IMG/VR virus record: IMGVR_UViG_2675903609_000006
Source of the DNA: a virus
Taxonomy: Duplodnaviria; Heunggongvirae; Uroviricota; Caudoviricetes
Length of the DNA stretch: 43,172 nt
Direction: 5' to 3' (one strand)
Shown one piece after another: positions 479 to 3,300 of the stretch (its first letter is position 1; the number at the start of each line of letters is the position of its first letter). Below the pieces are notes generated by a model. It saw nothing but the letters and a program-made list of their open reading frames with translations. It made no database searches and was not told where the DNA came from. The position numbers and the translations under genes are program-made.

Positions 479-679
479 TATAAGAATCCGATTCTAATTC
501 AAAGCATTACCCCATCAACACTGCGCTCACACGTCCCACCACATCAAAACATGTAAAGCCTTGCAAGCCATTGTGAGGCCTTATGTGTCTCAGTTTTGTC
601 TCATCAGACATAGCAAGTATCGATCAATTGAGACTTGGATGATAGACTTCATGCCTTTCAGAGCTCATTGATTAAATAA

Positions 680-1042
680 ATGTTAAAGTTATTTGTAAAG
701 TACACATCTATAGGTGTGCTGAACACACTTATACACTGGGTGGTTTTTGGTGTATGTATCTATGCCGCACATACCAGTCAGGCTCTGGCAAACTTCACAG
801 GTTTCGTAGTGGCTGTGAGCTTTAGCTTCTTCGCGAATGCAAGATTCACATTCAAAGCATCGACTACAGCGATGCGCTACATGTTATACGTGGGATTTAT
901 GGGAATATTGAGTGTGATTGTTGGTTGGGCAGCTGATAAATGCTCACTTCCTCCAATAGTCACTCTTATCACCTTCTCCGCCATCAGTCTGGTGTGCGGT
1001 TTCGTCTATTCAAAGTTCATTGTCTTTAGGGATGCGAAATGA
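680..1042 (+). CDS. gtrA: GtrA-family bactoprenol-glucose flippase (O-antigen modification)
   Basis: 120-aa protein with about four hydrophobic segments, first gene of a three-gene cluster, overlapping the next gene by 4 nt. Family recognised from recalled GtrA signature. Confidence 0.8.
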
Positions 1043-1953
1043 AAATATCTCTTGTCGTTCCTGTCTTCAATGAAGAAGAAGCGATACCTGTTTTCTATAA
1101 AACGGTACGTGAATTCCAAGAGTTGAAGCCATATGAAGTAGAAATTGTATTCATAAATGACGGAAGTAAAGATGCCACAGAGTCAATTATTAACGCGCTG
1201 GCTGTTTCAGACCCGCTAGTTGTTCCGCTGTCATTTACACGCAACTTTGGTAAAGAACCAGCCTTATTTGCAGGGTTAGACCATGCAAGCGGCGATGCTG
1301 TAATTCCTATTGATGTCGATCTGCAGGACCCGATTGAGGTTATCCCTCATCTTATTGAAAAGTGGCAGGCAGGGGCTGATATGGTACTGGCTAAGCGCTC
1401 AGACCGTTCTACAGACGGAAGACTGAAGCGCATGACTGCTGAGTGGTTCTATAAACTTCACAATAAAATAAGCAATCCAAAGATTGAGGAGAACGTCGGC
1501 GATTTCCGACTAATGTCTCGCGGAGTTGTGGAAAACATTAAATTATTACCAGAACGCAACCTGTTCATGAAAGGAGTATTGAGCTGGGTTGGTGGGAGTA
1601 CAGATGTTGTTGAATATGCTCGCGCTGAGCGTGTTGCTGGCAGCACTAAGTTTAATGGCTGGAAGCTCTGGAACCTGGCGCTTGAAGGGATTACCAGCTT
1701 CTCAACATTTCCGTTACGCATGTGGACGTACATTGGCCTGTTCGTTGCAGGCCTGGCTTTCCTGTACGGTGCCTGGATGATCATTGATACGCTTGCATTC
1801 GGGAATCCTGTGCGCGGTTATCCATCATTGCTGGTATCAATACTTTTTCTCGGTGGTGTGCAGCTCATTGGTATCGGAGTTTTGGGCGAGTACATTGGCC
1901 GGATTTATACCGAAGTTAAACAGAGACCTCGCTACTTGTTAAAAGAGAAATAA
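1039..1953 (+). CDS. gtrB: GtrB bactoprenol glucosyltransferase (GT2 family)
   Basis: 304 aa; N-terminal glycosyltransferase-2 motifs ([23 protein letters not shown]) and C-terminal TM helices. Confidence 0.9.
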
Positions 1954-1954
1954 A

Positions 1955-3268
1955 ATGGCTGAAAGAATAAGGTATGTATTCCTTGCAATTTTTTGTGCAT
2001 TACTGTGCAAGGAGTCAATTGACATATGGATGATGAATAATGGCGACTTCGATAGGGCCATAACACCTTTCATGAATGGGATCAGACAGTTCTCACATGA
2101 TGGCACATTACTTTATACCCTGAAGGAAAATTTCAGTTCAATTGTGAACTATGAGTATAAAAGCTCATTTAGTTATATTCTTTATTTATACGCTTATGTT
2201 ATATCGATATTCACACACACATTTGATCTTAGGTTATGGTCATCTCTTTCCAAAATCGTGTATATTTGTGCGTTATATAAACTATTTGTAGAAATAAACA
2301 ATAAAAAATATTCTTATCTTTTATTTCCGGTATCAGCATTATTGCTATTTACTCCTTCCATACTTTCACAATTCACAGCATTTTATCAGGAGCAAATAGT
2401 AATCACTTTACTTCCGGTAATTACTTATATAATTCTTAAAAAAGAAATATCAAGGTTTGATAAAGTATTACTAGTTGCATGCGCAGCGCTAATCGCCACA
2501 TCAAAATCTCAGTTCTTCTATATTCCCATTTTAATTTCTTTAATTTCAATAATATTTATTGACATAAGAGATAAAAAATTTCACTTAGCTATGGTAATTG
2601 CGACGATAATTGCATTGTCATTTTCATTTTTCTCGCCAAGCGCAACTAAATATAACAGCTATCACTCCCTTTATTTCGGGACTTTGCTATACAATAAAAG
2701 CAATGGAAAAGAAAATCCATCGTGGGCCGTGGACGAATGCATTGGTGTTGATGCATGGGGAAATAAATTTGATTTGGATAAGGGAGCTGTTACCACAAAA
2801 GATGCTGGAGCCTGCTTCGCAAAAAATAAAGAAAGGGGATTGAAGGATTCTTTGCTTTTGATGCTAAAGCAACCTTCCATGTTCCTCCTTCTTCCTTTTG
2901 ATTCTGGAGTTCGAACCCAATTAACTGAAGATTACTTCCATGTCTTCAAGGAAAATAAGCTAATAATAAGTAAGAGTGTTTTTTTGAATGAAGTTCAAAA
3001 AATAAAAGACTCTGCTCTATCAACTGTGAGGATTCCTGTTGCATTTATAGCCATGATAGCATCACTGATTTTTATCCGAAAAAAATATTCTGTTGCAATC
3101 TTTACATTATCTGCTTTTAGCATCTCTCAGTTTTATATTAGCTTCATTGGCGAAGGATATAGAGATTTAGACAAGCATCTTTTTGCAATGAACTTTTCAT
3201 TTGACCTAATGATATTTATAGTACTATCAATTATATTGGATAAGGTAGCATCAGGAATTTATAAGTAA
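1955..3268 (+). CDS. Serotype-specific Gtr glucosyltransferase (polytopic membrane protein, type not assignable)
   Basis: 437-aa highly hydrophobic protein in a very AT-rich gene immediately after gtrB; classic third gene of a gtr serotype-conversion operon. Confidence 0.7.
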   Translation: MAERIRYVFLAIFCALLCKESIDIWMMNNGDFDRAITPFMNGIRQFSHDGTLLYTLKENFSSIVNYEYKSSFSYILYLYAYVISIFTHTFDLRLWSSLSKIVYICALYKLFVEINNKKYSYLLFPVSALLLFTPSILSQFTAFYQEQIVITLLPVITYIILKKEISRFDKVLLVACAALIATSKSQFFYIPILISLISIIFIDIRDKKFHLAMVIATIIALSFSFFSPSATKYNSYHSLYFGTLLYNKSNGKENPSWAVDECIGVDAWGNKFDLDKGAVTTKDAGACFAKNKERGLKDSLLLMLKQPSMFLLLPFDSGVRTQLTEDYFHVFKENKLIISKSVFLNEVQKIKDSALSTVRIPVAFIAMIASLIFIRKKYSVAIFTLSAFSISQFYISFIGEGYRDLDKHLFAMNFSFDLMIFIVLSIILDKVASGIYK

Positions 3269-3270
3269 AC

Positions 3271-3300
3271 ATCCCCCCCACAGTTATCCTGGGGGGGGAT
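3271..3300. terminator. Hairpin terminator between the convergent gtr operon and tail-fibre fragment
   Basis: ATCCCCCCC ... GGGGGGGAT inverted repeat with a 12-nt loop, followed by TTTTAT. Confidence 0.5.

What the first reader, a model, noticed from the sequence alone, without database searches (positions are those of the whole stretch)
480..3300. Serotype-conversion gtr operon at the prophage end; type-specific gene unassigned
A gtrA-gtrB-type-specific-glucosyltransferase operon with its own terminator sits directly inside the distal attachment site, the characteristic position in O-antigen-modifying phages of enteric bacteria. The third gene (437 aa, extremely AT-rich) determines the O-antigen modification and hence phage receptor exclusion; its type cannot be assigned from sequence alone here.
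Basis: partly seen in the sequence, partly recalled or inferred. Interest (0 to 1): 0.45.

Follow-up and report, generated by a model that had tools for sequence, protein, structure and literature searches.

The report
Known gtrIV operon of Shigella phage SfIV
This is the well-studied gtrA-gtrB-gtrIV operon of Shigella flexneri prophage SfIV, which adds a glucose to the bacterial O-antigen to make the type IV (serotype 4) antigen, so the "unassigned" third gene is already characterised.

Summary
An intact three-gene operon lies just inside a 46-bp attachment-site copy (433-478): gtrA 680-1042, gtrB 1039-1953, and a 437-aa gene at 1955-3268 with 32.6% GC. A strong hairpin (3271-3299) follows it. 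The other end of the prophage has the phage integrase and an intact thrW tRNA-Thr (40259-40334), next to proA and proB.

The type can be assigned. The third gene is 100% identical in DNA and protein to gtrIV (orf25) of Shigella phage SfIV (KC814930), and 434/437 identical to the earlier cloned GtrIV-Sf (Q93TY7). The whole prophage is about 99.9% identical to SfIV. SfIV lysogeny converts serotype Y to 4a. GtrIV adds glucose by an alpha-1,6 linkage to the GlcNAc of the O-unit, and its membrane topology has been mapped experimentally.

One side observation was found in neither the SfIV record nor the searchable literature. The ORF next to gtrIV (3302-3913, minus strand) is the 3' remnant of a P22-like tailspike gene. 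Window 1555-3754 differs at only 2 aligned positions (a substitution inside gtrIV and a 1-base indel) from E. coli P22-like prophages that carry gtrIV beside an intact tailspike. This suggests module exchange between phage types.

The parts
433..478 (-). gtr-proximal attachment site: a 46-bp partial copy of the 3' end of thrW, inside a 64-nt direct repeat at 415-478
   Evidence: Direct repeat 415-478 / 40241-40304, 63/64 identical. It overlaps tRNA-Thr 40259-40334. The SfIV paper reports a 46-bp attP at both prophage ends.
479..679 (+). Region upstream of gtrA, presumed to hold the promoter and leader; no promoter was identified
   Evidence: The consensus scan found no sigma-70-like site on the + strand here. 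There is only one GATC, at 622, so the four-GATC Dam/OxyR phase-variation signature of P22 gtr is absent. The region is identical to SfIV.
680..1042 (+). gtrA (120 aa), proposed flippase for undecaprenyl-phosphate-glucose
   Evidence: PF04138 E=1.9e-14. PHROG 2224 E=1e-69. 100% nucleotide identity to SfIV orf27.
1039..1953 (+). gtrB (304 aa), bactoprenol (Und-P) glucosyltransferase, GT2 family
   Evidence: PF00535 E=2.6e-30. 305 bits to the solved GtrB homologue sll0501, 5EKP. Protein identical to SfIV orf26, with one synonymous change at 1374.
1955..3268 (+). gtrIV (437 aa), type IV-specific O-antigen glucosyltransferase
   Evidence: 100% DNA and protein identity to SfIV orf25. 434/437 identical to Q93TY7 GtrIV-Sf. 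GC 32.6%. Weak GT-C-type profile hits: WsfD E=4.7e-21, DUF2142 E=4e-6, GT87 E=0.0035.
3271..3299 (.). GC-rich hairpin (C8...G8) followed by TTTT; a likely intrinsic terminator shared by the convergent gtrIV and tailspike remnant
   Evidence: MFE -27 kcal/mol, z=-3.46. Sequence read. Conserved in E. coli P22-like prophages between the tailspike and gtrIV. Relative to SfIV the G-run is one base shorter.
3302..3913 (-). 3' remnant of a P22-like tailspike gene. The ORF is 203 aa; the homologous part corresponds to aa 491-681 of a 681-aa tailspike. It is cut off by the IS3-family element at 3877-5104.
   Evidence: 185/191 identical to E. coli tailspike P0020, which has the P22 Head_binding domain. 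PHROG 17420 'tail protein', C-terminal positions 401-568. IS ends located.
39081..40244 (+). SfIV integrase at the other prophage end, directly next to thrW
   Evidence: PF00589 E=6.5e-48. 99.9% DNA identity to SfIV.
40259..40334 (-). thrW tRNA-Thr(CGT), the integration target; its 3' 46 nt (40259-40304) form the int-proximal att core
   Evidence: ARAGORN. Rfam tRNA 71.8 bits. Direct repeat. proA and proB follow.

Best explanation
The region is the O-antigen glucosylation (serotype-conversion) operon gtrA-gtrB-gtrIV of an SfIV prophage integrated in thrW, most likely in Shigella flexneri.

Mechanism, taken from the established model for this family:
1. GtrB transfers glucose from UDP-glucose to undecaprenyl phosphate on the cytoplasmic face of the membrane.
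2. GtrA translocates Und-P-glucose to the periplasmic face.
3. GtrIV, a polytopic inner-membrane protein with two large periplasmic loops, attaches the glucose by an alpha-1,6 linkage to the GlcNAc of the tetrasaccharide O-unit.

This creates the type IV antigen (serotype Y to 4a; 4av or 4b if other modifications are present). It also changes the receptor seen by O-antigen-specific phages.

Shown here by computation: the identity of the genes, their integrity, the operon layout, the att sites and the terminator hairpin. Taken from the literature for an identical protein: the enzymatic steps and the serotype outcome.
For: - gtrIV is 100% identical (DNA and protein) to SfIV orf25. gtrA is identical and gtrB is identical at protein level.
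- The whole prophage (415-40304) aligns to the 39,758-bp SfIV genome at 99.90-99.97%, apart from a run of N.
- The exact protein is on record on 283 contigs under names that include 'serotype specific glucosyltransferase' and Shigella flexneri. A cluster member is UniProt Q93TY7 'GtrIV-Sf', 434/437 identical.
- SfIV lysogens of a serotype Y strain agglutinate with type IV antiserum, and SfIV integrates at thrW with a 46-bp attP (PMC3851460).
- GtrIV adds glucose alpha-1,6 to GlcNAc, and its topology and essential loops have been mapped (PMC3259042). The residue numbers used there (V155, D169, A181, D260/E261, E325/D326) fit this sequence.
- The family assignments of GtrA and GtrB are strong.
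- The flanks are thrW-proA-proB, the known SfIV integration locus.
Against: - Nothing in the sequence contradicts this explanation.
- No sigma-70 consensus promoter was detected upstream of gtrA, so expression is inferred, not shown.
- The host O-antigen backbone and any other modification genes (oac, opt) lie outside the window, so the final serotype (4a, 4av or 4b) cannot be stated.
- The protein differs at three residues (E146, Y233, K282) from the NCTC 8296-type GtrIV used in the topology study. However, the identical SfIV allele was functional in lysogenic conversion.
Confidence: 0.96

Rival explanations
1. The third gene is a new, uncharacterised Gtr type with an unknown O-antigen modification.
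For: Curated profile libraries do not name it. Pfam and NCBIfam hits fall below their cut-offs, and the PHROG family is 'unknown function'. RefSeq annotates it as a 'hypothetical protein'. tblastn against all phage records finds no other Gtr type at E<=1e-3.
Against: It is 100% identical to SfIV gtrIV and 99.3% identical to GtrIV-Sf. Both have been characterised experimentally (PMC3851460, PMC3259042).
Confidence: 0.01
2. The operon is intact but silent or without effect in this host. Possible reasons are no active promoter, or a host O-antigen that is not a GtrIV substrate. In that case it would be a passenger, not an active serotype determinant.
For: No consensus promoter was found on the + strand between the att site and gtrA. 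The host O-antigen cluster is not in the window. Near-identical operons also occur in a few E. coli genomes whose O-type was not determined.
Against: The upstream region is identical to that of SfIV, whose lysogens express the type IV antigen. The flanks carry IS600 and IS1 elements of the kind also found on Shigella plasmids in this search, and the locus is thrW-proA, the known SfIV integration site in S. flexneri. The genes show no decay.
Confidence: 0.04
3. The three substitutions relative to NCTC 8296 GtrIV (D146E, N233Y, E282K) alter the specificity or activity.
For: K282 replaces the glutamate of an acidic pair ('ED283') that the authors highlighted in the large periplasmic loop 6.
Against: The identical allele is the one carried by phage SfIV, which converted serotype Y to 4a. 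It is also the commoner allele on record: 283 contigs against 59.
Confidence: 0.02

Closest known systems
gtrA-gtrB-gtrIV cluster (orf27-25) of Shigella phage SfIV, KC814930 / NC_022749 (Jakhetia, Talukder and Verma 2013, PMC3851460)
   Same: Same genes, order, position next to attP/int, intergenic regions and neighbouring ISEhe3 element. gtrA and gtrIV are 100% identical in DNA. gtrB has one synonymous change. The whole prophage is about 99.9% identical.
   Different: Here it is in the integrated state, flanked by thrW-proA-proB on one side and by a remnant of a second integrase plus an IS600 end on the other. One G fewer in the terminator G-run. A handful of SNPs and an 8-bp indel elsewhere in the prophage.
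GtrIV-Sf (UniProt Q93TY7). I take it to be the gtrIV cloned from serotype 4a strain NCTC 8296 and used for the topology mapping (Nair et al. 2011, PMC3259042); that attribution is from memory.
   Same: 437 aa, 434/437 identical, and the same experimentally numbered residues.
   Different: E146 instead of D, Y233 instead of N, K282 instead of E.
gtrIV next to an intact tailspike in E. coli P22-like prophages (loci L004-L006; GCA_000408325.1, GCA_000208565.2)
   Same: The GtrIV protein is 436/437 identical. The same hairpin is present, with the same convergent arrangement with a tailspike 3' end. Window 1555-3754 differs at only 2 aligned positions.
   Different: There the phage backbone is P22-like (coat, gp7/gp20/gp16 ejection proteins, Mnt/Arc). 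The tailspike is full length (681 aa). gtrA and the 5' half of gtrB are only 85-90% identical. The integration sites differ.
gtr operons of SfI, SfII, SfV and SfX (gtrI, gtrII, gtrV, gtrX), and GtrIc
   Same: The same three-gene logic and the same position next to attP. SfI, SfII, SfV and SfX also integrate at thrW. The gtrA-gtrB region is 91-96% identical in DNA to SfI, SfV and SfII. GtrIc is reported as the closest topological relative of GtrIV.
   Different: The type-specific proteins show no tblastn similarity to GtrIV at E<=1e-3. They attach glucose to other residues or by other linkages (literature).
P22 / Salmonella gtrABC operons with Dam/OxyR phase variation (Broadbent et al. 2010, PMC2909390)
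   Same: gtrA and gtrB are homologous (about 78% DNA identity to P22-like Salmonella phages), the pathway is the same, and the position beside the tailspike and att is the same.
   Different: The regulatory signature of four GATC sites in paired OxyR half-sites is absent here; there is a single GATC at 622. GtrC is unrelated.

Membership tests
Shigella flexneri-type gtr serotype-conversion operon (gtrA-gtrB-gtr(type)) | Three co-directional genes in the order gtrA, gtrB, type-specific gene, tightly packed | tested here: met
   680-1042, 1039-1953 and 1955-3268, all on the + strand. There is a 4-nt overlap and then a 1-nt gap.
Shigella flexneri-type gtr serotype-conversion operon (gtrA-gtrB-gtr(type)) | The first product is a GtrA-family small membrane protein, and the second is a GT2 bactoprenol glucosyltransferase | tested here: met
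   PF04138 E=1.9e-14. PF00535 E=2.6e-30. PHROG GtrA and GtrB families E=1e-69 and 3e-181. 5EKP homologue at 305 bits.
Shigella flexneri-type gtr serotype-conversion operon (gtrA-gtrB-gtr(type)) | Located directly beside attP/int of a temperate phage integrated at thrW next to proA | tested here: met
   att core at 433-478 and 40259-40304. thrW at 40259-40334. int at 39081-40244. proA and proB lie downstream of thrW.
Shigella flexneri-type gtr serotype-conversion operon (gtrA-gtrB-gtr(type)) | The third gene is a low-GC, polytopic membrane protein unrelated to other Gtr types | tested here: met
   GC 32.6%. Several hydrophobic segments in a Kyte-Doolittle scan. No tblastn match to any phage record other than SfIV and its copies.
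GtrIV (type IV-specific glucosyltransferase) | Sequence identity to the experimentally characterised GtrIV | tested here: met
   437/437 to SfIV orf25. 434/437 to Q93TY7 GtrIV-Sf.
GtrIV (type IV-specific glucosyltransferase) | Adds alpha-1,6-linked glucose to the GlcNAc of the O-unit, giving type IV antigen reactivity | not testable with these tools
   Shown in the literature for the identical SfIV allele (Y to 4a lysogenic conversion, PMC3851460) and for the 99.3% identical allele (PMC3259042). It needs serology or NMR on this strain.
GT-C-type lipid-phosphate-sugar-dependent glycosyltransferases | Profile or structural match to a GT-C family | tested here: inconclusive
   The hits are significant but below the curated cut-offs: NCBIfam WsfD 75 bits against a cut-off of 80 (E=4.7e-21); Pfam DUF2142 26.3 against 30.1; GT87 E=0.0035. 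Precomputed Pfam YfdI_N hits exist on the 436/437-identical E. coli protein. The PDB sequence search found no relative. The single-sequence AlphaFold model was unusable, pLDDT 40.9.
Phase-variable Salmonella/P22-type gtr operon | Four GATC sites in two pairs within OxyR half-sites upstream of gtrA | tested here: not met
   There is only one GATC (position 622) between 415 and 700. The signature is as described in PMC2909390.

The most novel reading that the evidence does not exclude
The gtrIV determinant travels as a discrete module of about 2.2 kb. The module holds the 3' 393 bp of gtrB, gtrIV, the hairpin, and about 450 bp of a P22-like tailspike 3' end. It has recently been exchanged between P22-like (podovirus-type) prophages of E. 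coli and the myovirus SfIV of Shigella, by recombination inside gtrB and inside the tailspike gene. The unannotated ORF beside gtrIV in SfIV would then be a tailspike remnant that records this origin. It would also point to co-transfer of a receptor-recognition gene and the gene that modifies that receptor. The near-identical block itself is shown here. What remains uncertain is the direction and recency of the transfer, and whether it has already been described in literature I could not read.
Probability: 0.6. Interest if true: 0.25.

Novelty: already known. Interest (0 to 1): 0.08.

Why it matters
For annotation, the three genes can be named gtrA, gtrB and gtrIV, and the prophage can be named SfIV. 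gtrIV is a standard target in molecular serotyping of S. flexneri and marks the type IV antigen (serotypes 4a, 4av, 4b), which matters for surveillance and for O-antigen-based vaccines. No new biology follows from the operon itself. The tailspike remnant and the sharply bounded near-identical block shared with E. coli P22-like prophages are a small, concrete example of how serotype-conversion cassettes move between unrelated phage backbones and between E. coli and Shigella.

Tried and rejected
- Consensus promoter scan of 400-4000. It found no sigma-70-like site on the + strand between the att site and gtrA, so the promoter remains unlocated.
- Consensus terminator scan. It missed the hairpin at 3271-3299, which was found by reading the sequence and folding it.
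- Rfam scan of the whole window. Only thrW was found, so there is no known RNA element in the gtr leader.
- PDB sequence search with GtrIV. There were no meaningful hits; the best E-value was 0.96.
- Single-sequence AlphaFold2 model of GtrIV. Mean pLDDT was 40.9 and pTM 0.27, so it was unusable and no fold search was run. I ran no further search on building an alignment, because the identity of the gene was already settled.
- P22-type Dam/OxyR phase-variation signature. It is absent, with only one GATC.
- An apparent 159-bp difference from SfIV at 10181-10339. This is a run of N in the window, not a real divergence.
- Literature search for gtrIV together with 'tailspike' or 'GtrIV-Ec'. It returned only the SfIV paper, which does not annotate the remnant. 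One search call failed on a term-length limit.
- The original cloning paper for gtrIV (reference 8 of the SfIV paper) could not be found in the library.
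Full report
**1. What is in the sequence**

ORF listing shows three tightly packed + strand genes:
- 680-1042 (120 aa)
- 1039-1953 (304 aa)
- 1955-3268 (437 aa)

The first stop overlaps the second start, and the third gene begins one base after the second stop.

Family assignments:
- The 120-aa protein is a GtrA-family protein (Pfam PF04138 E=1.9e-14; PHROG 'GtrA-like O-antigen conversion' E=1e-69).
- The 304-aa protein is a GT2 bactoprenol glucosyltransferase (PF00535 E=2.6e-30; PHROG GtrB E=3e-181). It scores 305 bits against the solved GtrB homologue sll0501, PDB 5EKP.
- The 437-aa protein gets only sub-threshold hits to membrane glycosyltransferase families: NCBIfam WsfD 75 bits against a cut-off of 80, DUF2142, and GT87.

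The third gene is strikingly AT-rich, at 32.6% GC. gtrA and gtrB are 43-45% and the prophage as a whole is 50.1%.

A C8...G8 hairpin at 3271-3299 followed by TTTT folds at -27 kcal/mol (z=-3.46). It lies in the 33-nt gap between gtrIV and a convergent ORF.

**2. Prophage ends**

- A 64-nt direct repeat lies at 415-478 and 40241-40304 (63/64 identical).
- Its last 46 nt are the 3' end of tRNA-Thr(CGT). This tRNA is intact at 40259-40334 on the minus strand and is followed by proA and proB.
- A full integrase gene (39081-40244) abuts thrW.
- Upstream of that att copy, window 60-418 is the 3' third of a different integrase. It is 61% identical to the SfIV Int C-terminus. It is 100% identical in DNA to integrases that lie next to thrW in other E. 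coli genomes.
- That integrase remnant is cut off by the end of an IS600-type element at 1-~60. It looks like the remnant of an earlier thrW prophage.
- The SfIV paper notes that an int gene and an attP site were seen upstream of gtrA in a serotype 4a strain, which fits this arrangement.

**3. Identity of the third gene**

- tblastn of the 437-aa product against 50,697 phage records hit only Shigella phage SfIV (KC814930 / NC_022749) and a record with the same length and match coordinates, 'VIT_AJPSC'. All three were 100% identical over 437 aa. No other Gtr type matched at E<=1e-3.
- A base-by-base comparison shows that gtrA and gtrIV are identical in DNA to SfIV orf27 and orf25. gtrB has one synonymous change, at 1374.
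- The whole interval 415-40304 aligns to the 39,758-bp SfIV genome at 99.90-99.97%. The one apparent gap, at 10181-10339, is a run of N in the window.
- The exact protein is on record on 283 contigs. Its cluster contains UniProt Q93TY7 'GtrIV-Sf', which is 434/437 identical: E146D, Y233N, K282E.

**4. What is known about it**

- SfIV was induced from a serotype 4av strain. Its lysogens of a serotype Y strain agglutinate with type IV antiserum, carry gtrIV and resist SfIV.
- The prophage is bounded by int and gtrA, with a 46-bp attP at both ends. Serotype-converting phages other than Sf6 are reported to integrate into thrW. Orf25-27 are gtrIV, gtrB and gtrA (PMC3851460).
- The accepted pathway is as follows. 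GtrB makes Und-P-glucose from UDP-glucose. GtrA flips it to the periplasm. GtrIV then attaches the glucose by an alpha-1,6 linkage to GlcNAc, converting Y to 4a (PMC3259042).
- In the PhoA/LacZ fusion study, GtrIV has eight transmembrane helices, a re-entrant loop and two large periplasmic loops. Both loops are needed for function.
- Residue numbers used in that paper fit this sequence. They differ only where the NCTC 8296-type allele differs.

**5. Regulation**

- No sigma-70 consensus promoter was found between the att site and gtrA, so expression is inferred from the identity of this region to SfIV.
- P22 and Salmonella gtr operons are switched by Dam/OxyR through four GATC sites (PMC2909390). 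Only one GATC (622) occurs here, so that mechanism is not indicated.

**6. Side observation: a tailspike remnant and a shared module**

- The convergent ORF at 3302-3913 is unannotated in the SfIV GenBank record and is 'hypothetical' in RefSeq.
- It is 185/191 identical to residues 491-681 of a 681-aa E. coli phage tailspike. That tailspike carries the P22 head-binding domain.
- The remnant is truncated by an IS3-family (ISEhe3) element at 3877-5104. The element has TGAATCGCCACAG inverted repeats and no obvious target duplication. A tail-fibre-assembly gene on the far side is also truncated.
- Contigs encoding the full tailspike are P22-like prophages of E. coli. They carry the coat protein, the gp7, gp20 and gp16 ejection proteins, and Mnt/Arc. 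In them the tailspike is followed convergently by a 437-aa gene, then gtrB and gtrA.
- That 437-aa protein is 436/437 identical to GtrIV.
- Per-segment identity shows a sharp block. Window 1555-3754 differs at 2 aligned positions from L004: one substitution inside gtrIV and a 1-base indel in the intergenic hairpin region. By contrast, 555-1554 is about 85-90% identical, and 3755-3854 has 25 differences in 100 bp.
- The simplest reading is that a module of about 2.2 kb was exchanged recently between P22-like phages of E. coli and the myovirus SfIV. The module holds the end of gtrB, gtrIV, the hairpin and the end of the tailspike gene.
- I found no mention of this in the searchable literature, but I could not read the original gtrIV cloning paper.
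- Only 3 of 5,426 complete E. coli genomes carry this gtrIV region at 99% or more. All three have it in an SfIV-like context next to pao/yagP.
- Other E. coli at the same locus have similar gtrA and gtrB with a different third gene, a DUF6056-family protein. This illustrates the cassette principle.

**7. Verdict**

The element is the already-characterised gtrIV operon of phage SfIV, so novelty is nil and interest is low. The final serotype (4a, 4av or 4b) depends on genes outside the window.

Noticed in passing
window 3302-3913 (-), with loci L004-L006: The ORF beside gtrIV, unannotated in the SfIV record, is the C-terminal 191-aa remnant of a P22-like tailspike (97% identical to a 681-aa E. 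coli tailspike). E. coli P22-like prophages carry the intact tailspike followed convergently by gtrIV (436/437 aa identical).
   Followed up: yes
window 1555-3754 compared with L004: A sharply bounded near-identical block (2 differences in about 2.2 kb) spans the 3' end of gtrB, gtrIV, the hairpin and the tailspike 3' end. Its flanks are only 75-90% identical. This suggests a recent recombinational exchange of the gtrIV module between phage types.
   Followed up: partly
window 3877-5104: An IS3-family (ISEhe3-like) element of 1228 bp, with terminal inverted repeats TGAATCGCCACAG and no obvious target-site duplication. It separates the tailspike remnant from a 5'-truncated tail-fibre-assembly gene (about 5105-5618). 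It is also present in SfIV.
   Followed up: partly
window 1-418: The end of an IS600-type element (1-~60) truncates a second integrase gene (60-418). That integrase is 61% identical to SfIV Int, and 100% identical in DNA to integrases next to thrW in other E. coli. It is probably the remnant of an earlier prophage at the same tRNA site.
   Followed up: partly
window 10181-10339, 41423-41707, 42029-42168: Runs of N (masked or unassembled sequence) lie inside a tail gene and inside proA and proB. They produce artefactual ORF lengths and an apparent difference from SfIV.
   Followed up: yes
window 27172-27179: There are 8 extra bases relative to SfIV in the low-GC 'moron' gene (ORF 26140-27225, SfIV orf49). 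They change its C-terminus, giving 361 aa instead of 356.
   Followed up: partly
window 27549-28316 and 43119-43172: An IS1 copy lies inside the prophage next to the moron, as in SfIV. A second IS1 end lies at the very end of the window, beyond proB.
   Followed up: no
window 32687-32761: Four overlapping 30-nt repeat copies with 15-bp spacing (CAGATTTYGAYGSGT-like) lie inside the replication-protein gene (32118-33059, minus strand). They look like origin iterons.
   Followed up: no
E. coli NZ_CP042901.1 (locus L001), NZ_LS483303.1 (NCTC9967), NZ_CP047662.1: Only 3 of 5,426 complete E. coli genomes carry this gtrIV region (99.3-99.6% identical). In the one locus inspected (L001) it lies in an SfIV-like prophage next to paoD/yagP. 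Their O-serogroups were not checked; O13, O129 and O135 share the S. flexneri backbone.
   Followed up: no
phage record OR799564.1 (Shigella phage VIT_AJPSC): This record has exactly the SfIV length (39,758 bp) and the same match coordinates, but is listed with host Shigella dysenteriae. It appears to be the same genome as SfIV.
   Followed up: no
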